Positions 10,766 to 58,089 of a stretch of 64,000 nucleotides of DNA are shown here, piece by piece (within the stretch, counting starts at the first letter, position 1; each line of letters begins with the position of its first letter). The notes under the pieces are model-generated. The model saw only the letters and a list, made by a program, of their open reading frames with translations. It had not been told where the DNA came from and made no database searches. This stretch comes from the human T2T-CHM13v2.0 reference genome, Homo sapiens. The position numbers and the translations under genes are program-made. Location of the stretch: the NCBI RefSeq assembly GCF_009914755.1, contig NC_060929.1. The stretch is one strand, 5' to 3'.

Positions 10766-11026
10766 TGGGAGGCCAGGGCGGGCGGATCACGAGGTCAGGA
10801 GATCGAGACCATCCTGGCTAACACGGTGAAACCCCGTCTCTAATAAAAATACAAAAAAATTAGCCAGGCGTGGTGGTAGGCGCCTGTAGTCCCAGCTACT
10901 CAGGAGGCTGAGGCAGGAGAATGGCGTGAACCTGGGGGGCCGAGCTTGCAGTGAGCCGAGATTGCACCACTGCACTCCAGCCTGGGCGACAGAGCGACAC
11001 TCTGTCTCAAAAAAAAAAAAAAAAAA
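10766..11026 (+). mobile_element. 5'-truncated AluY
   Basis: AluY diagnostics gagatcgagaccatcctggctaacacgg and aatggcgtgaacc. Degenerate TSD ending in ggtagt. Confidence 0.93.
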
Positions 11027-11489
11027 GAGGTAGTAGGTCAAAGCAACGATCGAACTCTACAATGCTGAAGAAATCAAACAGAAATGACGAGCTGATGGCT
11101 TTGTCAGATTTCTTCAAGTCTTTGTTGTCCTAGTCCTAATCTGTAAGAAGATAGTTTTCAGGCTGGAGGGTAAAAATAAAACCTTCATAAAATTTCATTT
11201 GCTGCTTTCTAGTGTTGGAGAAAGATCCCCATTTTCTGATCCATACATCTCACAGATACGTGATAATATGGTATTGTGGACTCTCCTGTGTGACTGCCTC
11301 TCCTGTGAAGAACCCCCTCTGAGCTTGTATTCACTGATGTGAGAGCTTGAAACAACATTGCCTATGCCACAAAAGCATTATGATTTGAAATCAAGCATGG
11401 GTATGTACTCTCGAGGGAATTACAGTGGATTTTCCCCAGGCTTTTCAAACCATTAGTGCAATTTTCAAAAAGTTTGGTTGGGGTATAGA

Positions 11490-12020
11490 TTATAGACAAG
11501 AAAATTTATCCATTTTAAGTGCTCATCTCCCTGAATTTGGGCACACATATACAGTTGTGTAATTACCACCACGATTAACATATGGAATATTTTTTTCACC
11601 TCCAAAAGTTTACTTAGGGCCGGGCATGGTGGCTCACACCTGTAATCCCAGCACTTTGGGAGGCTGAGGTGGATGGATCACGAGGTCAGGAGATCGAGAC
11701 CATCCTGCCTAACACGGTGAAACCCCGTCTCTACTGAAAATACAAAAAATCACCCAGGCGCAGTGGCGGGTGCCTGTAGTCCCAGCTACTTAGGAGGCTG
11801 AGGCAGGAGAATGGCGTAAACCTGGGAGGCGGAGTTTGCAGTGAGCCGAGATCGCGCCACTGCCCTCCAGCCTGGGCGATAGAGCCAGACTCCGTCTCAA
11901 AAAAAAAAAAAAAAAAGTTTACTTAGGCCCCTTTGTGGTCATTCCTTCCCTAACTCCAGCTCTAAGCAACCTCTGATCTGACTTTTGTCACTTTAGTTAG
12001 AATTTCATATAAATGGAATT
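11490..12020 (-). mobile_element. L1M 3' fragment interrupted by AluY (+, 11618-11912)
   Basis: AluY with a clean TSD aaaagtttacttag(g). Flanks are continuous antisense L1MB/ME-like sequence. Confidence 0.85.
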
Positions 12021-12021
12021 T

Positions 12022-12022
12022 C

Positions 12023-12061
<39 letters not shown>
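12022..12061. repeat. (AT)n(AC)n compound microsatellite
   Basis: Read directly from the sequence. Confidence 0.9.
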
Positions 12062-12293
12062 GGCAGGCACACATATATGAGATACATGATATTCATATTT
12101 TAGAACCAGCTTTTATACGTGGTAACAATATTTATTCAAATATATACACATGGTAAAAATGACCTGGGTAGTATAAGAGGGTTTAAAATAAAAAGATGAG
12201 TCTGCCATACCCCACTCTTTCTCATTTCTAATCCCACTTCTCAGAGCCAACAGCATGTAGCTGTCTCTGCTTTAGTTCCTCTGGAGGTTTTAA

Positions 12294-12635
<342 letters not shown>

Positions 12636-13111
12636 CCAAACCATTGTTTCTTGACAGTAACTAGTGATGATTTTGCTCATTGCATTACCCCCTCCACTCT
12701 TCCACCTTATCTCTTCCTCCTCCTCCTCCTCCCTATAGTTATTAGTTAAATCACTATTTTTTATTGCCTCTTTTGCTTACCTTTGAACCTTAAATGTTTA
12801 TTCTTGATTTTACAACTTAAACTTGCACTTTGAGGAGGAAAGTAATTACAATTTTTGCACTTTGTAGAATATTCTTTATGTAAAATAACCACATAAACTG
12901 TAAAATTCAGGAGTGGAGATCAGGCATGACCAGTTAAGTTATTTTGCTATTCTCTCTCTCTCTCTGTGTGTGTGATAATTTATACGACTCACTTTTGTTT
13001 CCGTTCTGTATACATATTACAAAATAGCTCAAATAGACCTCTGATATTAATTTTTGTAAACATAACAAAGAAAATTCAGAAGAAACTGCAGGATACTTGG
13101 AAAATGTGTAA

Positions 13112-13591
<480 letters not shown>

Positions 13592-14331
13592 TAAAAGCTT
13601 GAGGCACATGATAAAAATTAGCTGGCAATAAAGATTTTATAACTAAAGTCTCCTTATTTGGCAATTAACTGAGTCAACATTTTCAGCCAATATTACAAAA
13701 ACAAAACTTTCAGAGGACTATTTATGAACTTGAGGCTACTTTCTTCACATTTTTATAAACAATCATCTTTTAGATGACTGTGGTTTTCCCTCTAGGTAAG
13801 GAGTTGCAGGTGCAAACAGGATGTCTTAGCAATTTACCTTCTTGAAATCTTGGAAGTTGTAGGATTTGACTTCATCATCTAGCATCTGGCTTCCAGTTTG
13901 CAGGTCCACCTTCTCCATGGATGCTGCAAATTAGAATGTCTTCACTAAGCAGAGGGTCTCTTTGGTGCTCAAAGATACTACTAACTGATTTGCCAATGCT
14001 TGAGGACCTCACTTAAGGTGAGTACAAGGAGACTTCTTAATACAGAAACAGACCCCTCTTACAGCAACCACAGTTAAAAGAAATTTGTTTAATTCAATCT
14101 AACAACAACAAAGTGTGATCTTAATGAAGCCCAAACAACTATTTGTCTTTCTTGGTGTATTTATCCAGGCAAGTTGGCTAAAATGGGAATTCACTGAAAC
14201 AGCAATAGCTTCACAGTTCACATCAGGAAACTTACTGTTTTGTCACAAAATGAAATAGTTTCAGTAGTTCATATAAAAGTGAGATGTAAAACATGGAAGA
14301 AAATCAGTGAATATTTATTTTTAAAGTTGTT

Positions 14332-14875
<544 letters not shown>

Positions 14876-15329
14876 TTATAACTTTTAATAATACTGGTAA
14901 ATTTCTATTTCCTGTTTCATCTACTTTCAACAGTACCTTTTGATTCTCTACTTTCTGCCCTACCTCTTCCTTTCTTCCTCCCACCTTTACTGTGAGGCTA
15001 TTATGTTTGATACCGTACATTCTGAGATTTAAATGATCATCTGGGCTTTACATGTAGGTTGATTCTTGAAAGACAAAAGCCGAAAATAGGTTTTGTTGCA
15101 GCATATAGGGGTATACTCTGATTGATTTCTTTCTCTGTGATTCCAACACCACAGCTTCTTTATCTTTAAGAAATGAGTTTAAATACATTCTCTTTCCAGT
15201 GTGCTCACTGCATCATGCCACATTTTAGCAGGCTTCCTATTTGCACTGTGACTTTCTTTTACATTTTCCCCTTCCTGGAGTTTCTTACTGACTTTCATTT
15301 TTCTCATTGGAAGACACATAAGTGCCTTC

Positions 15330-15770
15330 TGCTGTGCGTTCTACACCCACGCTCCACCCTTTTTCACCCTGCTCTGCCTGTATAAGTTGCATCAGCAGAC
15401 AGCCAGGCTTGGGGGCTTCTGGCCTGGTTCAGCCAACAAGCAGCCCAGTAGGCGAAGAGCAGGAGTGGGGAGAGTGAGCTTGAGGTTCATTCTGCTGTGA
15501 GATTGCCTCCGTTTGGCTGTGTACATCTGCTGAAAATCACTTCCCCTCTCAAGATAACTTTTTTTCTTTTGGTAACGGACTCTTGGCCTTTTCCACTTGG
15601 GTAAAATACTCTCTTGGTCCCTGGGGCTTAGAGGAGTGACAGTTCCACTTTTGCTAGCCCCTCGTTATTGTACTATCTCTTTTTCTTTTTCTCACATTTT
15701 GGCAAATAGACCCCAAATTATCCTAATCTGAGGGTGCCACTGGCTTCCTGTTGGGATTTTGACTGATGCA
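15330..15770 (+). mobile_element. LTR33-like ERVL solo LTR
   Basis: Ends ...agggtgccactggcttcctgttgggattttgactgatgca, an LTR33-type 3' end. Left boundary approximate. Confidence 0.55.
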
Positions 15771-15969
15771 ATGGGGTTGGAGGAGGAAGCAAGGTATATT
15801 CAGAGATCAGAGTTTGTTCACCCATTCCTATTTAAGATGGAAGAACCAAGAGGGCTGACAGGTCTCTCTGTGTACCTGGCTGGGAGGATCTTCACTTTAT
15901 GGGGATAAGATGGGGAGCCCTGTATCAGGCACTACATCTCACCCCCAGAGCCACCTCTCTCCTTAACCA

Positions 15970-16302
15970 TTTTTTATTTTATTTTATTTTTTGTTTTTAG
16001 AGACAGGGTCTTGCTCTGTTGCCCAGGTTGGTTGGAGTGCAGTGCTGCGATCATAGCTCACTGTAGCCTCAACCTCCTGGGCTCAGGCGATCCTTCCACT
16101 TCAGCCTCCTGAGTAGCTAGGACTACAGGTGCGTGCCACCATGCCTGGAATATTTATTTTTATTTATTTATTTATTTATGTTGTAGAGATGGGGTTTTGC
16201 TGTGTTGCTGAGGCTGGTCTTGAACTTCTGGGCTCGAGCAATCCTCCTGCCTGGGTCTCCCAGAGTGTTGGGATTACAGGTGTAAGCCAACCATACCAGG
16301 CC
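15970..16302 (-). mobile_element. AluJ
   Basis: atcatagctcactgtagcctcaacc is J-type; expanded (TTTA)n linker. Confidence 0.92.
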
Positions 16303-24538: not shown

Positions 24539-25173
<635 letters not shown>

Positions 25174-25739
25174 TAATTTAGCTTTTCAGCTAAACTGTAA
25201 TCTTCTTAAGATCAGTATATGTGTGTCTATAAAATACATACCAGCATGACACTTTCAAAAATAAGATGGTTGATAAAATAATGGATAAAATGGATTCCTC
25301 CCCTCTTCCTTCTCTTCTTCCCTCCCTCCTTCCTCTCCCTTTTGTAGCACCTCCTGTCTCTTAGGCTGCTGATTTAATATTAGAAATGAGAACAGAAATG
25401 GCTAGGGTGGCATCTAGAACCATTATAAAATTCAAGGGCAGAATAGAATTTTGTAGACTTGATGATTTTTTGGAAATTTATTTTCTGGACATACTTCTTA
25501 TCTATACAGGCTCCAGCCCATCTATTTCTTCCTTTCCGTGTGATCCATCCTTTTGTGGTTGATTGTCTCAGCAAGTAGAACTTCAAGTCAGAGTCCTGGG
25601 TTTTGGACTCATGATCTGGTTGGCTTTGCCACATAGATAGCTTTCACAACAGAGACTCACAACAGAGTGTGGCAGACCAGTGGGAGTCCACTACTACCCC
25701 TGGGCCTGCAGCTGAGAGCACATGCCCTGATGGGTTGTG

Positions 25740-25890
25740 GGTGATTGTCCTGCCTCTTTCAGCCTGTTTCCTCATCTGTAAAAGGGGAATAAATTATGGG
25801 CTCATGACGAGAACTCGATGAGAAAATGCAGGATGGATCTCAGAACAATGCCTGCCATATATTAAGCACTGAGTGGATATGTAACCATTT
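25740..25890 (+). mobile_element. MIR
   Basis: gcctgtttcctcatctgtaaaaggggaataa core. Confidence 0.65.
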
Positions 25891-26506
25891 TCATGCCTAG
25901 ATAGGCAGTTAATGAATATCATCATATACTGCCCAGGTTAGTGAACTTCCCTTATACCCTGAGAGCAGATGTAAGCTTCTAGAGGGTAGGAGCCATCAAC
26001 TGCCTAGAATGTCCAGATATAGCATCACATATGGGGCCACTCAGTCGCTAAAATTGTGATGTGAGTGTTGTTCAGTAGCTTATTATCATGTCTGTCAGAT
26101 GGAGCATCACATCAGACTTGGCAAACATGAGGAGCAAATATCCCTAAAGCAAGTCTAAAAACAAACTTCCATAAACCAAGTTATTCATGTCTTTCATCTG
26201 TTCTTGAGAATCTCCACCAATGGAGTAACCCAAAAGTCAAATAAAAAATTGTATATACCAAGATTTATAAGGAATAATTAAAAACCTTCCAAATGTTAAA
26301 ATAGGCAAATGTAATTTAAGTAAATATTTAAGTAGTATATCATTTCTGTGTAACATTATGTACACTTTATAAACGTTTACTACAGTTTTAAGTAATATGG
26401 AAAAATTCTTAAGTTATCATGTGACCTGAAAACTATGCTGGAATAGCATTGCATATGCAGCATGAGCATGACTGTATTAAAATGGTTTTAGAAAATAGAT
26501 TGGAGA

Positions 26507-26800
26507 GGCCGGGTGCGGTGGCTCACACCTGTAATCCCAGCACTTTGGGAGGCAGAGGCGGGCGGATCACAAGGTCAGGAGTTCGAGAGCAGCCTGGCCA
26601 ATATGGTGAAACCTCGTTTCTATGAAAATGCAAAAATTAGCCGGGCATGGGGTTGGGTGCCTGTAGTTCCAGCTACTCGGGAAGCTGAGGCAGGAGAATT
26701 GCTTGAATCCTGGAGGTAGGTTGCAGTGAGCTGAGATCGTGCCACTGTACTCCAGCCTGAGTGACAGAGTGAGATTTCATCTCAAAAAAAAAAAAAGAAA
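26507..26800 (+). mobile_element. AluSg/Sc-like
   Basis: Full Alu; TSD agaaaatagatt(g/t)gaga. Confidence 0.94.
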
Positions 26801-34447: not shown

Positions 34448-34776
<329 letters not shown>

Positions 34777-35432
34777 AAAGACTCTAGGCTTTTCTTCTTC
34801 AGTTGGTGCCCCACCAGCTGGCACAATGATCAGCTGGGATAGGTAGAGAAACCCCTTGCAAGTAACATTTTAGTAGTAAGAAGTATGAAGGAGTAGAAGT
34901 GTGAGGAGAAGGGGAGGGAATGGTATCAAGAAACAAAGTATTTCCCCCTGTTTTATGCCGACCTTACTGTTATTTTTGTTCTGCCTCGTCTTAGTTCTCT
35001 CTCTCCCATTTGCTATCCTACAGTGGCAGCAAGTCAGATTTAGAGTGAGTTCTCTGTGCCTCTACGGCTCAGGGATGGGATACTTTACCCTTCTGAAGGG
35101 CCAGACGTACCGGGAAAACATTAGTTGAAGCTCCCATGAGTGTTAAAGACAGCTCACTTGTCAGTTTGGGTTAAGTACTGAGATATGTGAAGATTAAATT
35201 CAGAGCAAACATTAGAATAAAGGAACATAAAACCCAGTTTCATCAATATATCCAATGTTTAAAATGCATTTCATTTCTACCTCACAAGCAGCTACAGAAA
35301 GAAGAAAGGGAAAAAACAAGAAAGAGGAGGAGGTAATGAATTATACGGTGAATAACATGACCACATACTTTTTTACTGCTTTTGAAATGTACCTAGACTG
35401 GAGAATTGCTGTCTGGTTTTGTCCATCTGCAC

Positions 35433-35730
<298 letters not shown>

Positions 35731-43654: not shown

Positions 43655-44140
43655 TTTTTAAAAGTTGAGATATAAATCATATCCCATAAAATTCACCATT
43701 TTAAAGTATACAATCCAGTGGTTTTCAGTATATTAGCCAGCTTGTGAAACCATCACCACCGTCTATTTCCAGAATGCTTTCATCATTCAAAAAAGAAAAC
43801 ACAGTGATGGTGGTTGCATGACTTTGTACATTTGTTAAAACCCATAGAACCCTAATAAACTATGGGCTTTAGTTAATAATTATGCATCAATATTTGTTCA
43901 TCAACTGTAACAAACATGTCACATATATGCAAAATGTTAATAATGGGAAAAACTGTGTGTGGGGGATAGAGCATATGGGAGCTTCCTGTACTTTCTGTTC
44001 AGTTTTTCTGTAAACCAAATACTGTTCTAGAATGTCTGTCAATTAAAAAATAGTGATAAAAAAACTCCTCACCCATTAGCAGTCACTCTGCTCTGCCCAT
44101 TCCCCTCGCTCCTGGCAACCACTTACCTGTGTTTTGTCTC
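43655..44140 (-). mobile_element. L1MB-like 3' fragment with a nested sense L1MC 3' end (about 43802-44050)
   Basis: Host ataaaattcaccattttaaagtatacaatccagtggttttcagtata ... cctggcaaccact. Insert aaactatgggctttagttaataat ... ctgtactttctgttcagtttttctgtaaacc. Confidence 0.75.
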
Positions 44141-44720
44141 TTGCATGAGTTCTTTGAAGAAGCATTTAAGCCATTTGTTTTGGTAGTTACAGTTAAGAGA
44201 TTGCCGAGTGTTTCTGCATTAAAATATCACATCCTTATAACTCCCATCTGCCCTTGCTCAAAACATTAGTGAAGGATGAAATATGCTTTGAAAAATTAAA
44301 ATGCCATAGCTTTTCATAAAAATAGGAGAAAAATGAAAATCTTGTCAGTCTAAAAGTGTAGTAAAAACATTTCTGCTATGCGAAACCTGAAGTTCCAGGT
44401 CTGTAAACTCTGCAGCAGGCAGAGTCAGCTGCGAGTTTGAAACTATGGGACAGAATCACTGAGAAGCATTCTAAGAATGGCTTGGGATCACAGTCACACT
44501 CAGAGAACTTGAACTGGGAACTATGTTGAGGTCGTCCTGGAGCAACATGCATGTGGCAGCTTATCTGTAGTGGTTGAGAAATCAGTGAAAATAATAAAGA
44601 GATATACCTGTGTGGAGAGGCTCAATGACTATATCGGCAATATCTGCAACATCACCATGGAGTGGGGGTGGGGAGTTGGAATTTGATCTGCCAGTCAAAG
44701 AGCTGGTTCTGGTCTGGGAT

Positions 44721-45161
44721 TCTTGAGGGTCCAGATAAATATACAGAATTGGAGGGAAATCTTCCCACTCTAGACGAGCCTGAAAACTGAGATTCTAAGA
44801 CACCAGATTACCAGAAAGACATCAGAAATGCAAACAATTAGGAAATAAATTTTTCTCAATGAAATGCACATCATAAATTTTAATTTGCATTTAAAGTGCA
44901 AATCATAAATTTTAATTTGCATTTAAAGTGCAAATCATAAATTTTAATTTGCATTTAAAGTGCAAATCATAAATTTTAATTTGCATTTAAAGTGCAAATC
45001 ATAAATTTTAATTTGCATTTCACTGAGAAAAATTTATTTCCTAATTGTTTGTATTTCTGATGTCTTTCTGGTAATCTGGTGTTTTAGAATCTCAGTTTTC
45101 AGGCTCATCTAGAGTGGGAAGATTTCCCTCCAATTCTATATATCTATCTGGCCCCTCAAGA
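44721..45161. repeat. Long inverted repeat: 148-bp arms (44721-44868 / 45014-45161), 7 mismatches, 145-nt loop
   Basis: Manual reverse-complement alignment, ungapped, 141/148 identical. Confidence 0.95.
44865..45020. repeat. 32-bp minisatellite (tgcaaatcataaattttaatttgcatttaaag) x 4.9
   Basis: Units start at 44865, 44897, 44929, 44961 and 44993; one substitution in unit 1. Confidence 0.96.
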
Positions 45162-45341
45162 TGAGATATAATTTAAAAAGTACATTTGGGACTCATAAAG
45201 ATATGGAAATAGCATCCATGAAAAGGACAAGAAATTATAAAACAAAAACAGGTAGCTGTGAATAAAGGACAGGTAGATACGAAAATGATTCTACCAGAAG
45301 CCATGAAAATAAAAAATTTGCTATTAAAATAAAAATAACTT

Positions 45342-46352
45342 GGGAGGTTCCAAGATGGCCGAATAGGAACAGCTGCAGTCTACAGCTCCCAGGGTGAGCG
45401 ACGCAGAAGACAGGTGATTTCTGCATTTCCAACTGAGGTACCAGGTTCATCTCACTGGGGCTTGTCAGACAGTGGGTGCAGCCCATGGAGCGTGAGCAGA
45501 AGCAGGGCAGGGCATCACCTCACCCGGGAAGTGCAAGGGGTCGGGGAATTCCCTTTCCTAGCCAAGGGAAGCCCTGCCAGATGGTACCTGGAAAATTGGG
45601 ACACTCCCAACCTAACACTGCGCTTTTCCAATGGTCTTAGCAAACAGCACACCAGGAGATTATATCCCACGCCTGGCTCGGAGGGTCCCATGCCCACGGA
45701 GCCTCGCTCACTGCTAGCACAGCAGCCTGAGATTGGACTGCAAGGCAGCAGTGAGGCTGGGGTAGGGGTGTCTGCCATTGCTGAGGCTTGAGTAGGTAAA
45801 CAAAGTAGCTGGGAAGCTCTAACTGGGTGGAGCCCACCGCAGCCCAAGGAGGCCTGTCTGCCTCTGTAGACTCCACCTCTGAGGGCAGGGCATAGCTGAA
45901 CAAAAGGCAGCAGAAACTTCTGCAGACTTAAACATCCCTGTCTGACAGCTTTGAAGAGAGTAGTGGTTCTCCCAGCACACAGTTTGAGATCTGAGACAGA
46001 CAGACTGCCTCCTCAAGTGGGTCCCTGACCCCCGAGTAGCCCAATTGGGAGACATCTCCCAGTAGGGGCTGACTGACACCTCATACGGCCGGGTGCCCCT
46101 CTGAGATGAAGCTTCCACAGGAAGGATCAGGCAGCAACATTTACCGTTCTGCAATATTTGCTGTTCTGCAGCCTCCGCTGGTGATACACAGGCAAACAGG
46201 GTCTGGAGTGAACCTCCAGCAAACTCCAACATACCTGCAGCTGAGGGTCCTGACTGTTAGAAGGAAAACTAACAAACAGAAAGGACACCCACACCAAAAC
46301 CCCATCTGCACGTCACCATCATCAAAGACCAAAGGTAGATAAAACCACAAAG
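45342..46352 (+). promoter_or_regulatory. L1 5'UTR internal sense and antisense promoter; YY1 motif at 45351-45361
   Basis: caagatggccg intact. The 129-bp segment absent from L1PA2/L1HS is retained (46096-46224). Confidence 0.8.
45515..45778 (-). CDS. L1 ORF0-like antisense ORF, 87 aa, open
   Basis: MADTPTPASLLPCSPISGCCASSERGSVGMGPSEPGVGY... aligns with ORF0 (MAGAPPPASLPPCSLISDCCASNQRDSVGVGPSEPGVGY). Start context gcaATGG. Translation is not demonstrated. Confidence 0.6.
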   Translation of the reverse strand: MADTPTPASLLPCSPISGCCASSERGSVGMGPSEPGVGYNLLVCCLLRPLEKRSVRLGVSQFSRYHLAGLPLARKGNSPTPCTSRVR

Positions 46353-47373
46353 ATGGGGAGAAACAAGAGCAGAAAAGCTGAAAATTATAAAAATCAGAGC
46401 ACTTCTCCTCCAAAGGAATGCAGCTCCTTGCCAGCAATGGAGCAAAGCTGGACAGAGAATGACTTTGATGAGTTGAGAGAAGAAGGCTTCAGACGACTGG
46501 TAATAACAAACTTCTCCGAGCTAAAGGAGGATGTTTGAACCCAACACAAAGAAGCTAAAAACCTTGAAAAAAGATTAGATGAATGGCTAACTAGAATAAA
46601 CAATGTAGAGAAGACCTTAAATGACCTGATGGAGCTGAAAACCGTGGCACGAGAACTATGTGAGGAATGCACAGGCTTCAGTAGCCAATTCGATCAAGTG
46701 GAAGAAAGGGTATCAGTGATTGAAGATCAAATAAATGAAATGAAGTGAGAAGAGAAGTTTAGAGAAAAAAAGAGTAAAAAGAAACAAACAAAGCCTTCAA
46801 GAAATATGGGACTATGTGAAACAAAATCTACGTCTGATTGGTGTACCTGAAAGTGATGGGGAGAATGGAACCAAGTTGGAAAACACTCTTCAGGGTATTA
46901 TCCAGGAGAACTTCCCCAATCTAGCAAGGCAGGCCAACATTCAAATTCAGGAAATACAGAGAGTGCCACAAAGATACTCCTCGAGAAGAGCAACTCCAAG
47001 ACACATAATTACCAGATGCACCAAAGTTGAAATGAAGGAAAAAATATTGAGGGCAGCCAGGGAGTAAGGTCAGGTTACCCACAAAGGGAAGCCCATCAGA
47101 TTAACAGCAGATCTCTTGGCAGAAATTCCACAAGCCAGAGGACAGTGGGAGCCATTATTCAACATTCTTAAAGAAAAGAATTTTCAACCCAGAATTTCAT
47201 ATCCAGCCAAACTAAGCTTCATAACTGAAGGAGAAATAAAATCCTTTGCAGATAAGCAAATGCTGAGAGATTTTGTCACCACCAGACCTGCCTTACAAGA
47301 GCTCCTGAAGGAAGCACTAAACATGGAAAGGAACAGCCAGTACCAGCCACTGCAAAAACAGGCCAAATTGTAA
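46353..47373 (+). pseudogene. L1 ORF1, disrupted
   Basis: MGRNKSRKAEN... to ...PLQKQAKL*, broken by several stops and frameshifts. Confidence 0.92.
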
Positions 47374-47436
47374 AGACCATCAATGCCAGGAAGAAACCGC
47401 ATCAACTAAGGAGCAAAATAACCAGCTAACATCATA

Positions 47437-52071
<4,635 letters not shown>

Positions 52072-52299
52072 ACGATGAGAACACTTGGACATAGGGTGGG
52101 GAGCATTACACACCAGGGCCTGTCGTGGGGTGGGGCGAGTGGGGAGGGATAGCATTAGGAGATATACCTAATGTAAATGACAAGTTAATGGGTGCAGCAC
52201 ACCAACATGGCACATGTATACATATGTAACAAACCTGCATGTTGTGCACATGTATCCTAGAACTTAAAGTATAATTAAAACAAAATTAAAAAAAAAAAC

Positions 52300-52810
52300 A
52301 ACTTAATAGACTGGCTAAGTTTATGCTAGATACAGCTGAATAGAGAATTGGTGAATTAGAAGAAAGTCTTAGATAATTCAATACAGTGAACAGAGAGATA
52401 AAGAAATGGAAAATACGAATGTAAAGGTGTTGTTAAGGCATACAGACAGTGGATTGAAAGATTCAAACATACATCCTATGGGAGTTACAGAAAGAGAGAA
52501 TAGGGGGCATGGCAAATTAGTAATATTTGAAGAGATTGTGGCTGAGAACTCAAGCACTGAATTCAAGAAGCTAGAACCGCAGAACAAATATCCAAATAAC
52601 AGATGTAAAAAGGAATATGGAGAAGAAATTAATAACACAGAAAAACAACAACAATAATCAAGAAGTCCTACTTATTTCAGAAGACATTTTTAGAATTACC
52701 ATTTTTTAAAAAAGGCACAAATAACATTAAACATGGAGAAAATGTACCAACAAATGTTATAAAGAAAATAATTTGAAAACTTAGATGAAAAGGATAATTT
52801 AGAGGCAAAT
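52300..52810 (+). mobile_element. Ancient L1M ORF1-region remnant (host of the L1PA insertion; continues 45162-45341)
   Basis: agatacagctgaatagagaattggtgaattaga ... aatatttgaagagattgtggctgagaac (IFEEIVAEN). Confidence 0.7.
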
Positions 52811-56659: not shown

Positions 56660-56965
56660 TTTTTGTTTGTTTGTTTTGAGACAGGGTCTTGCTCTGTTGC
56701 CCAGGCTAGACTGCAGTGGCCCAATTACTGCTCACTGCATCCTGCAGCCTTGACTTCCTGGGCTCAAGCAATCCTTCCACCTCAGCCTCCTGAGTAGCTG
56801 GGACTATAGGCATATGCCACCATGCCTAGCCAATGTTTTCATTTTTATTTTTGTAGAAACAGGGTCTCATTATATTTCCCAGGATGATCTCAAACTCCTG
56901 GGCTCAAGCGATCCTCCTGTCTCAGCCTCCAAAAGTGGTGCGATTACAGGTGTGAGCCACCATGC
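56660..56965 (-). mobile_element. AluJ
   Basis: ctgcagccttgacttcctgggctcaagc is J-type. Confidence 0.92.
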
Positions 56966-57684
56966 TTAATTTATTTTTTTAAGTGACTTGATACTATTCC
57001 TCAATTAGGGAAATGGAATTGTTGGGAAATAAGCAGAAGAGGAATAAGATACTTTATAATGTCTTACTACTACTGATAGTAATATTATAACTAGTATTTG
57101 ATATTGTTGTAATAATTATCAATACAATAGAGCATTAACGTTTCTGATGCATTTGGAAATTATCCTGGTGTATGGTAGAGATGGGGGAGAGTTTTTCTAG
57201 TCTCTGTTACACGGAGGTGGTAACCCTTCATATGTCCTGATGTTATGCATGGATCTTAGCTCCAACTTGGTGCCCTGCACAGGGCCAAGACCATGGGGGC
57301 CAAGGCCCCCACCCCCTTGGATGTTAGAACCTTGGTTCCTGTGCTTTTTGCTATGGCTTTGCCTCTCATTTTTGTTTCTACACCTGAGGATTCCTTTTTT
57401 CTCCCCCTGCTTTAGCTTGATGTATGTTTCACCCAGTTTGGGATTTTCCCTCAGCTTGGTTTACTGCTTTGCCATACTTTGGTTCACAGTGGTTAGGAAC
57501 TTGTAGAGGACATATCCTAAGGGGCTTGGAAATAAAATGGGGTAGAGATGAGCATTAACTCTGGAAGCACTATTAGTTTTTCTGAATCTAGTGGCTTGTT
57601 TTAAAGCATTTTGAAACTTTATAGGCTAGAGCATATCTTCAGATAGCCCATGTGTTCAATTACGACTTAAAAATGTCTGAGATT

Positions 57685-58089
<405 letters not shown>

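What the first reader, a model, noticed from the sequence alone, without database searches (positions are those of the whole stretch)
44721..45161. 441-bp near-perfect foldback in RASGRF2 intron 1, not made of paired Alus or any MITE I recognise
Seen: two ungapped 148-bp arms with 141/148 identity around a 145-nt loop. Folded as + strand RNA, the 7 differences give 4 A-C mismatches, 2 G-U wobbles and 1 U-C. Established: dsRNA stems over 100 bp are ADAR and Dicer substrates and can engage PKR, A opposite C is a favoured ADAR context, and long inverted repeats can form hairpins in single-stranded DNA. Inference: the left arm shares the A-rich polarity of the flanking ancient L1M-like sequence, so the T-rich right arm is probably a copy made by fold-back template switching. 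The ~5% arm divergence points to a primate-era event or to arm-to-arm gene conversion. It is a candidate single-copy hairpin-RNA (endo-siRNA or editing) locus inside a neuronal pre-mRNA.
Basis: partly seen in the sequence, partly recalled or inferred. Interest (0 to 1): 0.8.

Follow-up and report, generated by a model that had tools for sequence, protein, structure and literature searches.

The report
Single-copy palindrome in RASGRF2 intron
A real, one-of-a-kind 441-base inverted repeat lies in the first intron of human RASGRF2; it is most likely a harmless relic of an old inverted duplication whose AT-rich centre later expanded, and nothing yet shows that it has a function.

Summary
Arms 44721-44868 and 45014-45161 match at 141 of 148 positions without gaps. 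As + strand RNA the seven differences give 4 A-C, 2 G-U and 1 U-C.

The "145-nt loop" is not a loop. It is 4.9 copies of a self-complementary 32-bp AT-rich unit. The whole 441 bp is therefore a nearly spacer-less quasi-palindrome, with 220-nt arms, 88% match and 1 nt between them. In the RNA fold, 394 of 441 nt are paired.

In T2T-CHM13 each arm matches only itself and the other arm, by DNA, by translation and by a 24-mer search. Control queries found 70-86% identical repeats. No target-site duplication flanks it. It is therefore not a MITE.

Best reading: a neutral inverted duplication roughly 20-50 million years old, followed by a much younger minisatellite expansion at the dyad.

A hairpin-RNA function is unsupported. 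There is no second genomic copy to target. The antisense strand folds better than the sense strand (-297.6 against -284.1 kcal/mol). The mismatch pattern fits neutrality.

It resembles PATRR-type palindromes but is only 70% AT. Which arm is the copy, editing, small RNAs and polymorphism could not be tested.

The parts
44721..44868 (+). Left arm of the inverted repeat (148 nt, 63.5% AT, A-rich at 40.5% A)
   Evidence: It is 141/148 identical to the reverse complement of 45014-45161. In the genome it matches only itself and the right arm.
45014..45161 (-). Right arm, the reverse complement of the left arm (148 nt, 64.2% AT, T-rich on the + strand)
   Evidence: It is the only second match of the left arm in G000, at C5:81513014-81513161, with 95% identity.
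44865..45020 (.). Central minisatellite: 4.9 copies of the 32-bp unit TGCAAATCATAAATTTTAATTTGCATTTAAAG. The stretch between the arms is 82% AT. Each unit is self-complementary.
   Evidence: TRF: period 32, 4.9 copies, 99% matches, score 305; units 2-4 are identical and unit 1 differs at one base. One search gives the composition. One search finds five ATGCAAAT motifs on the - strand, 32 bp apart.
44941..44941 (.). Dyad axis of the whole quasi-palindrome
   Evidence: arms 44721-44940 and 44942-45161, 220 nt, 88% complementary, 1 nt between them; 194 of 220 positions match.
44776..44858 (+). 5' side of the longest uninterrupted RNA helix (83 bp, includes 2 G-U), pairing with 45024-45106
   Evidence: (helices of the ViennaRNA minimum-energy fold).
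45170..45345 (+). Context: right flank. It is part of an old, diverged interspersed repeat that begins 9 nt after the palindrome and resumes after a LINE-1 insertion at about 52310.
   Evidence: 78-82% identical hits on C4 and C3; collinear hits in L047 to 45228-45317 and 52463-52548.

Best explanation
This is a single-copy inverted duplication of unique intronic sequence, not a mobile element.

Step 1 (inferred). Some tens of millions of years ago, about 150 bp was copied in reverse complement next to itself. The likely route is a fold-back or template-switch error of replication or break repair. This gave a roughly 313-bp palindrome with an 11-nt tip.

Step 2 (inferred from the sequence). 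The two arms then drifted apart neutrally to 4.7% difference.

Step 3 (inferred from the sequence). Much more recently, a 32-bp hairpin-forming segment at the dyad was amplified by slippage to 4.9 nearly identical copies. This gave today's 441-bp, almost spacer-less quasi-palindrome.

What it does. As DNA it can form a hairpin or cruciform, and its centre is probably unstable in length. As part of the RASGRF2 pre-mRNA it should fold into a long intronic hairpin. ADAR would be expected to edit that hairpin, and it would be discarded with the intron. No selected function is indicated.
For: Shown here:
- The arms are exactly symmetric and ungapped, 148/148 nt with 7 differences.
- The arm is unique in the 3.1-Gb genome apart from its partner. 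DNA searches gave 2 of 2, 2 of 2 and 2 of 4 scored candidates at the locus. The translated search gave 2 of 2. A 24-mer with up to 3 mismatches gave 2 exact hits at the locus and 1 hit with 3 mismatches elsewhere, against 5 hits for the reversed control pattern.
- The same tool did find 70-86% identical copies of neighbouring old repeats.
- No flanking direct repeat of 4 bp or more exists at any of 169 boundary offsets.
- The differences look neutral. Six of 7 are transitions and one is at a CpG. There are 2 wobbles against 4 A-C (p 0.69). The antisense RNA is the more stable one (-297.6 against -284.1 kcal/mol).
- The array is younger than the arms. Units 2-4 show 0 differences in each 32-nt comparison, where 1.56 per pair would be expected at the arms' divergence.
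- Seven fixed differences between the arms argue against an assembly fold-back artefact, which would give identical arms.

From papers (passages read):
- Template switching creates inverted repeats and hairpins in primate genes. In that study 31,007 of 53,666 putative events formed a new stem (PMC10710096; model in PMC5453318).
- Short inverted repeats next to a break can seed palindromes (PMC7999016).
Against: - No outgroup or population data were available. The event, its date, its direction and the recent expansion of the array are all inferred from one haplotype.
- Arm-to-arm gene conversion would make the duplication older than the divergence suggests.
- Template-switch events described in print are mostly tens of bp; a threshold of 14 bp is mentioned in the passage I read. 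An arm of about 150 bp is at the long end or outside that class.
- The repeat searches cannot see families diverged beyond roughly 30%. No Dfam or RepeatMasker library was on hand.
- Absence of function is not shown. Editing, small RNAs and protein binding were not testable.
Confidence: 0.6

Rival explanations
1. It works like a PATRR-type fragile palindrome. The nearly spacer-less 441-bp structure would extrude a cruciform or form a lagging-strand hairpin, stall forks, break at the centre and vary in length between people. It could take part in rearrangements. This is compatible with the best explanation as to origin; it adds a DNA-level activity.
For: - 220-nt arms at 88% with 1 nt between them.
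- DNA hairpin of -183 kcal/mol, z -35.
- AT-rich centre, 82%.
- Array units are nearly identical, which implies recent slippage.
- PATRRs are several hundred bp, nearly perfect, spacer-less and share little sequence with each other. One of them, PATRR17, lies in an NF1 intron (passages of PMC4940405, and PMC7999016).
- Long arms, high identity and a short spacer raise recombinogenicity (PMC7999016).
Against: - Overall AT content is 70% and the arms are 64%. The review gives more than 90% for PATRR11 and PATRR22.
- The central 145 bp pairs imperfectly.
- The PATRR sites listed in the passages read are 11q23, 22q11, 17q11, 8q24, 4q35.1, 1p21.2, 3p14 and 9p21. None is on 5q.
- The arms have survived with 4.7% divergence, which suggests long-term stability.
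Confidence: 0.15
2. It is a functional hairpin-RNA locus. The intronic stem would be a selected ADAR, Dicer or PKR substrate that yields endo-siRNAs or regulates RASGRF2 in neurons.
For: - The sense RNA folds at -284.1 kcal/mol with an 83-bp uninterrupted helix and 89% of bases paired.
- There are four A-C mismatches. That these are a favoured ADAR context is established knowledge, recalled here.
- The structure lies inside the RASGRF2 transcription unit on the sense strand (hub annotation).
- Template-switch hairpins in introns have become miRNA genes (PMC10710096).
Against: - The arm has no other copy in the genome, so no extended trans target exists.
- The antisense strand folds better than the sense strand.
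- The wobble to mismatch ratio is neutral.
- The best Rfam match scores 28.6 bits against a 230-bit threshold. RefSeq lists no RNA gene here (hub table).
- In mouse somatic cells, brain included, a perfect hairpin of about 0.5 kb was poorly processed into siRNAs, only slightly edited, and induced no interferon response (PMC3245926, abstract and passages).
- The stem is far below the 300 bp and 96% pairing class taken as MDA5-relevant (PMC7006430; PMC11838218).
- The same intron holds many ordinary inverted repeat pairs.
Confidence: 0.07
3. It is the last recognisable copy of a palindromic non-autonomous DNA transposon (MITE), with its arms kept alike by gene conversion.
For: - The overall shape fits: long terminal inverted repeats around a short AT-rich core.
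- No Dfam or RepeatMasker library was available to exclude a very old family.
Against: - No other copy appears in 3.1 Gb at a sensitivity that finds 70-80% identical repeats (with controls 49 and 59).
- No target-site duplication of 4 bp or more, and no TA or TTAA at the ends.
- 95% arm identity is far higher than expected for human DNA transposons. That these are all tens of millions of years old is recalled knowledge.
Confidence: 0.05
4. The central array is a cis-regulatory cluster of POU (octamer) binding sites, and the palindrome is incidental.
For: - Five perfect ATGCAAAT motifs lie 32 bp apart on the - strand at 44883-45018.
- The window holds 12 such motifs against 5.1 +/- 2.1 expected.
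- That this motif is the POU octamer is recalled knowledge.
Against: - The five sites are copies of one tandem unit, so they amount to a single event and not independent evidence.
- RefSeq lists no functional element here (hub table).
- No binding or chromatin data were available.
Confidence: 0.03
5. It is an assembly or sequencing fold-back artefact.
For: Palindromic chimeras are a known artefact of amplification and of long reads (PMC6218980, title and abstract in a search listing only).
Against: - The arms differ at 7 fixed positions with a transition-dominated spectrum. Artefactual fold-backs would be identical.
- The array is regular and the flanks are ordinary unique sequence.
Confidence: 0.01

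Closest known systems
PATRR17, the palindromic AT-rich repeat in an NF1 intron, and other PATRRs (11q23, 22q11, 8q24)
   Same: A locus-specific, near-perfect palindrome a few hundred bp long with essentially no spacer and an AT-rich centre. It lies inside an intron and has no sequence relatives elsewhere (PMC4940405; PMC7999016).
   Different: Only 70% AT overall, against more than 90% stated for PATRR11 and PATRR22. The outer arms are ordinary mixed sequence. The centre is a 32-bp tandem array that pairs at about 75-88%. No translocation is known at this site. The primary NF1 paper (PMC1310899) is not held, so details of that site are recalled.
Hairpins created by replication template switching (four-point model; de novo primate miRNA precursors)
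   Same: A reverse-complement copy of adjacent sequence, made in one event inside a gene's intron, gives an instantly perfect stem that then decays by point mutation (PMC5453318; PMC10710096).
   Different: The arm of about 150 bp is several-fold longer than miRNA-sized events. The ancestral state was not seen. No miRNA or small RNA is annotated. RASGRF2 does not occur in the 3 held supplementary files of PMC10710096.
Intronic inverted-repeat dsRNAs (inverted Alu pairs; long near-perfect inverted duplicates)
   Same: An intramolecular dsRNA in a pre-mRNA intron, expected to be bound and edited by ADAR and removed with the intron (PMC7006430; PMC11838218).
   Different: It is not built from repeats. 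About 90% of predicted human dsRNAs, and more than 99% of edited ones, are repetitive. It has no spacer, whereas the 19 other pairs in this window have 421-1853 nt between arms. It falls below the 300 bp and 96% cut-off of the published lists, and RASGRF2 is absent from the held supplement of PMC7006430.
hpRNA or endo-siRNA loci of Drosophila and mouse oocytes
   Same: A long inverted duplication transcribed into a hairpin.
   Different: Those loci derive from, and target, a parent gene elsewhere (recalled). This arm has no other genomic copy. Somatic mammalian cells process such hairpins poorly (PMC3245926).
AT-rich minisatellites of rare fragile sites (FRA16B, 33-bp unit)
   Same: An AT-rich, hairpin-forming unit of about 32 bp repeated in tandem.
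   Different: Only 4.9 copies (156 bp), whereas fragile alleles are expanded arrays (recalled). For PMC2875025 I saw only the title and abstract start in a search listing.

Membership tests
MITE / non-autonomous DNA transposon | Multiple dispersed copies of the element in the genome | tested here: not met
   The arm matches only itself and its partner in G000. Within the 64-kb window it also has only those two hits. Control queries found 70-86% identical repeats.
MITE / non-autonomous DNA transposon | Target-site duplication flanking the terminal inverted repeats | tested here: not met
   The longest exact flanking direct repeat over +/-6 nt offsets on each side is 3 bp. There is no TA or TTAA at the ends.
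MITE / non-autonomous DNA transposon | Termini matching a known transposase superfamily or a Dfam family | not testable with these tools
   No Dfam or RepeatMasker library was available.
PATRR (palindromic AT-rich repeat) | Nearly perfect palindrome of several hundred bp without a spacer | tested here: inconclusive
   441 bp with 1 nt between the 220-nt arms, but only 88% complementary overall. The outer 148 nt match at 95% and the central array less well.
PATRR (palindromic AT-rich repeat) | Extreme AT content (more than 90% stated for PATRR11 and PATRR22) | tested here: not met
   69.8% AT overall, 63.5% and 64.2% in the arms, and 82.1% in the centre. The criterion comes from PMC4940405.
PATRR (palindromic AT-rich repeat) | Lies at the breakpoint of a constitutional translocation, and is length-polymorphic in the population | not testable with these tools
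   Only one haplotype is held. No 5q site appears among the PATRRs named in the passages read.
Template-switch (inverted duplication) hairpin | One arm is the exact reverse complement of adjacent sequence, with ungapped symmetric ends | tested here: met
   148/148 nt ungapped with 7 substitutions and no indels.
Template-switch (inverted duplication) hairpin | Outgroup species show the one-armed ancestral state, consistent with four ordered switch points | not testable with these tools
   No primate genomes are held. G000 'has no relatives here'.
hpRNA / endo-siRNA locus | A long, stable hairpin in a transcribed strand | tested here: met
   -284.1 kcal/mol, z -32, with an 83-bp uninterrupted helix on the RASGRF2 sense strand. 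Transcription is inferred from the gene annotation only.
hpRNA / endo-siRNA locus | Homology to a target gene elsewhere | tested here: not met
   No other genomic match to the arm by DNA, by translation or by 24-mer search.
hpRNA / endo-siRNA locus | 21-23-nt Dicer products from both arms | not testable with these tools
   No small-RNA data were available.
Known miRNA or other Rfam family | Score at or above the family's gathering threshold | tested here: not met
   The best of 7 matches at E up to 1 scores 28.6 bits against a 230-bit threshold (MIR7533, a plant family). All 7 are far below their thresholds.

The most novel reading that the evidence does not exclude
The locus is an undescribed, actively unstable palindrome of the PATRR kind on 5q14, built from ordinary unique sequence rather than from extreme AT-rich DNA. 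Its 32-bp dyad array would be expanding in the human lineage, making the structure progressively more spacer-less. It would then vary in length between people, extrude as a cruciform, and act as a site of breakage or rearrangement. A further possibility is that it is a nascent small-RNA precursor inside a neuronal gene.
Probability: 0.12. Interest if true: 0.6.

Novelty: new member of a known kind. Interest (0 to 1): 0.3.

Why it matters
[quoted passage not shown] One catalogue counts 718 near-perfect ones longer than 200 bp (PMC7680136). Only about a dozen PATRRs have been characterised (PMC4940405).

This locus is made of non-repetitive sequence, so it can be genotyped, cloned and traced through primates without ambiguity. 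It appears to record two separate steps: an older inverted duplication and a younger expansion at the dyad.

That makes it a convenient natural case for three questions. How do palindromes arise? How do they persist? Does their centre evolve towards or away from symmetry?

If it proves to be merely neutral, it is one more intronic hairpin of little consequence.

Tried and rejected
1. Arm as an old LINE-1 ORF1 fragment. I thought I recognised ORF1-like residues in the left arm, from recalled sequence. This is rejected.
- Pfam gave 0 families for 6 X-read translations of the left flank plus left arm and of the right flank.
- The genome-wide translated search found only the locus.
- BLASTP against the ORF1 piece of the neighbouring LINE-1 gave no alignment at E up to 100.

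2. Right flank as L1M. The sequence after the LINE-1 insertion aligns in register with ORF1 only at E 0.39. Pfam found nothing in 3 frames and nothing in the two homologous loci. "L1M-like" is therefore unconfirmed.

3. Polarising the duplication from repeat-family members. I collected copies of the flanking old repeat and aligned 7 loci to 44000-45345. Homology starts at 45170, and no copy has arm-like sequence. The members are too few and too interrupted by other repeats to say which arm is original.

4. Centre array elsewhere in the genome. There are only 2 weak matches (79% and 71%), both to AT-rich loci on C14 and C22. This is likeness in composition and architecture, not homology.

5. 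Rfam found nothing near a threshold.

6. Literature on this site.
- RASGRF2 with 'inverted repeat' or 'palindrom': the only relevant-looking paper, PMC8492700, concerns megabase DHFR amplicons.
- RASGRF2 with 'A-to-I' and 'intron': 3 papers, none about this site judging by title and abstract.
- RASGRF2 with dsRNA, RNA editing or hairpin: none of the 10 listed papers, out of 1,027, holds RASGRF2. Papers lower in that list were not seen.
- RASGRF2 is absent from the held supplements of PMC7006430, PMC11838218 (1 file) and PMC10710096 (3 files).
- The full dsRNAscan tables were not available and may well list this hairpin.

Full report
**Observation**

The arms are 44721-44868 and 45014-45161. 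They are ungapped reverse complements with 141 of 148 matches. Of the seven differences, six are transitions and one is a transversion, and one (44775) sits in a CpG. As + strand RNA they read as 4 A-C, 2 G-U and 1 U-C.

The fold is far beyond chance:
- RNA, + strand: -284.1 kcal/mol against -81.5 +/- 6.3 for shuffles, z -32.
- DNA: -183 kcal/mol, z -35.

In the 64-kb window this is the top-ranked of 20 inverted pairs with arms of at least 60 nt within 2 kb. The other 19 are 72-90% complementary with 421-1853 nt between the arms. Most of them fall in the roughly 300-bp masked repeats listed by the hub, so they look like ordinary inverted Alu pairs. That reading rests on their size and on the recalled Alu signature of pair I20.

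**Anatomy: the "loop" is structured**

The 145 nt between the arms are 4.9 copies of a 32-bp unit at 44865-45020, with 99% matches between copies. The stretch is 82% AT. Each unit holds two 7-nt inverted words, TGCAAAT and ATTTGCA, separated alternately by 11 and 7 nt. The array is therefore complementary to itself.

As a result, the repeat finder reports the whole element as 220-nt arms at 88% with a single base between them (194 of 220). The minimum-energy RNA fold pairs 394 of 441 nt and leaves an 11-nt tip. Its longest uninterrupted helix is 83 bp, and the next is 30 bp.

With one unit instead of five, the element would be a palindrome of about 313 bp with an 11-nt tip. That is my reading of the sequence.

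Units 2-4 are identical and unit 1 differs by one base. At the arms' divergence, 1.56 differences per 32-nt pair would be expected. The array is therefore much younger than the arm duplication, or it is being homogenised.

**Copy number: not a mobile element**

The window's own assembly (3.1 Gb, 24 contigs) could be searched.
- The left arm finds itself (100%) and the right arm (95%) and nothing else, 2 of 2 candidates.
- A 769-nt query that includes 621 nt of left flank gives the same result, 2 of 2.
- A query of right arm plus flank finds the locus twice, plus two 80-82% hits that fall wholly in the flank at 45170-45278, 4 of 4.
- A translated search finds only the locus, 2 of 2.
- A 24-mer from the arm with up to 3 mismatches finds the two arms and one 3-mismatch hit. 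The reversed control pattern finds 5.

The tool does see old repeats. It returned hits of 73-79% identity over about 100-140 nt (588 candidates, of which 40 were scored) and hits of 70-86% identity (6 of 6).

No flanking direct repeat longer than 3 bp exists at any of 169 boundary offsets. The multi-copy and target-site-duplication criteria of a MITE are both unmet. Families diverged beyond about 30% cannot be excluded without Dfam.

**Origin**

Exact symmetry of two ungapped 148-nt arms in unique sequence points to a single inverted-duplication event. The divergence is 4.7% (JC 0.049). That gives about 24 My at 1e-9 per site per year or 49 My at 0.5e-9, with a Poisson 95% range of roughly 8-98 My. 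This assumes no gene conversion between the arms.

Template switching during replication is documented to create such reverse-complement copies and new stems in primate genes (passages of PMC5453318, and PMC10710096). Fold-back priming at a break next to a short inverted repeat is an alternative route (PMC7999016). The sequence cannot tell the two apart.

Which arm is the copy is also open.
AT skew is +0.26 in the left arm, -0.27 in the right arm, +0.38 to +0.40 in the right flank and +0.08 to +0.19 in the left flank.
- The right flank belongs to an old low-copy interspersed repeat. Detectable homology begins at 45170, 9 nt past the palindrome.
- That repeat continues collinearly after a LINE-1 insertion.
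- None of the 7 related loci examined has arm-like sequence.
- I could not confirm that this repeat is L1M.

**Function**

Nothing points to a selected RNA structure.
- The antisense RNA is more stable than the sense pre-mRNA strand (-297.6 against -284.1 kcal/mol). This is because four of the six transitions give A-C on the sense strand.
- Two wobbles against four A-C fits a neutral 1:1 expectation (p 0.69).
- No Rfam family comes near its threshold.
- The arm has no second genomic copy, so small RNAs from it would have no extended trans target. In that respect it differs from classical hpRNA loci (the comparison is recalled).
- In mice, a perfect hairpin of about 0.5 kb expressed everywhere was poorly diced and lightly edited in somatic tissues, brain included. 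It triggered no interferon response (PMC3245926).
- The stem is well below the 300 bp and 96% pairing class discussed as MDA5-relevant. That class has 197 human cases inside RefSeq transcripts (PMC7006430) and 2,018 genome-wide (PMC11838218).

What remains likely is this. The stem forms in the RASGRF2 pre-mRNA. It exceeds the roughly 30 bp needed by dsRNA-binding proteins (recalled). ADAR edits it to some degree, with the four A-C sites as good candidates. It is then degraded with the intron. That is inference; no expression or editing data were available.

**DNA level and comparison with known kinds**

The nearest named class is the PATRR. PATRRs are locus-specific, several hundred bp long, nearly perfect and spacer-less. 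One of them lies in an NF1 intron (PMC4940405; PMC7999016).

This element shares the size, the lack of a spacer, the AT-rich centre and the absence of relatives. It fails on AT content, with 70% overall against more than 90% stated for PATRR11 and PATRR22. Its centre pairs imperfectly. No 5q site is among the PATRRs named in the passages I read.

I therefore do not file it as a PATRR. It may still behave like a weak one. The near-identity of the array units suggests recent slippage, so length polymorphism of the centre is a concrete prediction.

**Verdict**

It is a single-copy element, not a MITE and not paired Alus.

The most likely account is a neutral, primate-era inverted duplication with a younger minisatellite expansion at its dyad. 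Its consequences are structural (a DNA hairpin or cruciform, and an intronic dsRNA) rather than functional.

I found no paper on this site (searches; supplement look-ups). Genome-wide dsRNA and palindrome catalogues whose full tables I could not see probably list it.

It is a new member of a known kind, of moderate to low interest unless it proves polymorphic, fragile or processed.

Noticed in passing
window 45347-52300 (+ strand): A near full-length LINE-1 starts 186 bp after the palindrome. It carries an endonuclease ORF piece (47547-48056, Exo_endo_phos, E 4e-10) and a reverse-transcriptase ORF (48769-51408, RVT_1, E 4.5e-45). Its ORF1 region is broken into several pieces (46254-47373). It ends in a poly-A at about 52290. 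It splits an older interspersed repeat whose two halves, 45170-45345 and about 52327-52650, hit the same loci collinearly.
   Followed up: partly
L009:1388-1730 (G000 C22, about 18,488,4xx-18,488,8xx): Another AT-rich palindromic locus has the same architecture. About five copies of a 30-bp self-complementary tandem unit lie inside 30-nt inverted arms that are 90% complementary and 283 nt apart. It surfaced as a 71% match to the central array. It lies on chromosome 22. I did not check whether it is one of the LCR22 PATRR-like sequences.
   Followed up: partly
window 44883-45018 (- strand): Five perfect ATGCAAAT motifs lie exactly 32 bp apart, one per tandem unit. From recall this is the POU octamer. 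The window holds 12 such motifs against 5.1 expected. They are copies of one unit and so are not independent evidence of a binding-site cluster.
   Followed up: partly
window 10791-16158, 24783-26799, 34500-35675, 56660-57982: The same intron holds at least 19 further inverted repeat pairs, 60-184 nt long and 72-90% complementary, with 421-1853 nt between the arms. They mostly fall in the roughly 300-bp masked repeats of the hub list. They are probably ordinary inverted Alu pairs that also form intronic dsRNA.
   Followed up: no
window 44721-45161, - strand: The antisense transcript of the palindrome would fold more stably than the sense one (-297.6 against -284.1 kcal/mol) and with a more regular centre. 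No antisense transcription unit is annotated over this position; RASGRF2-AS1 lies upstream of the window.
   Followed up: no
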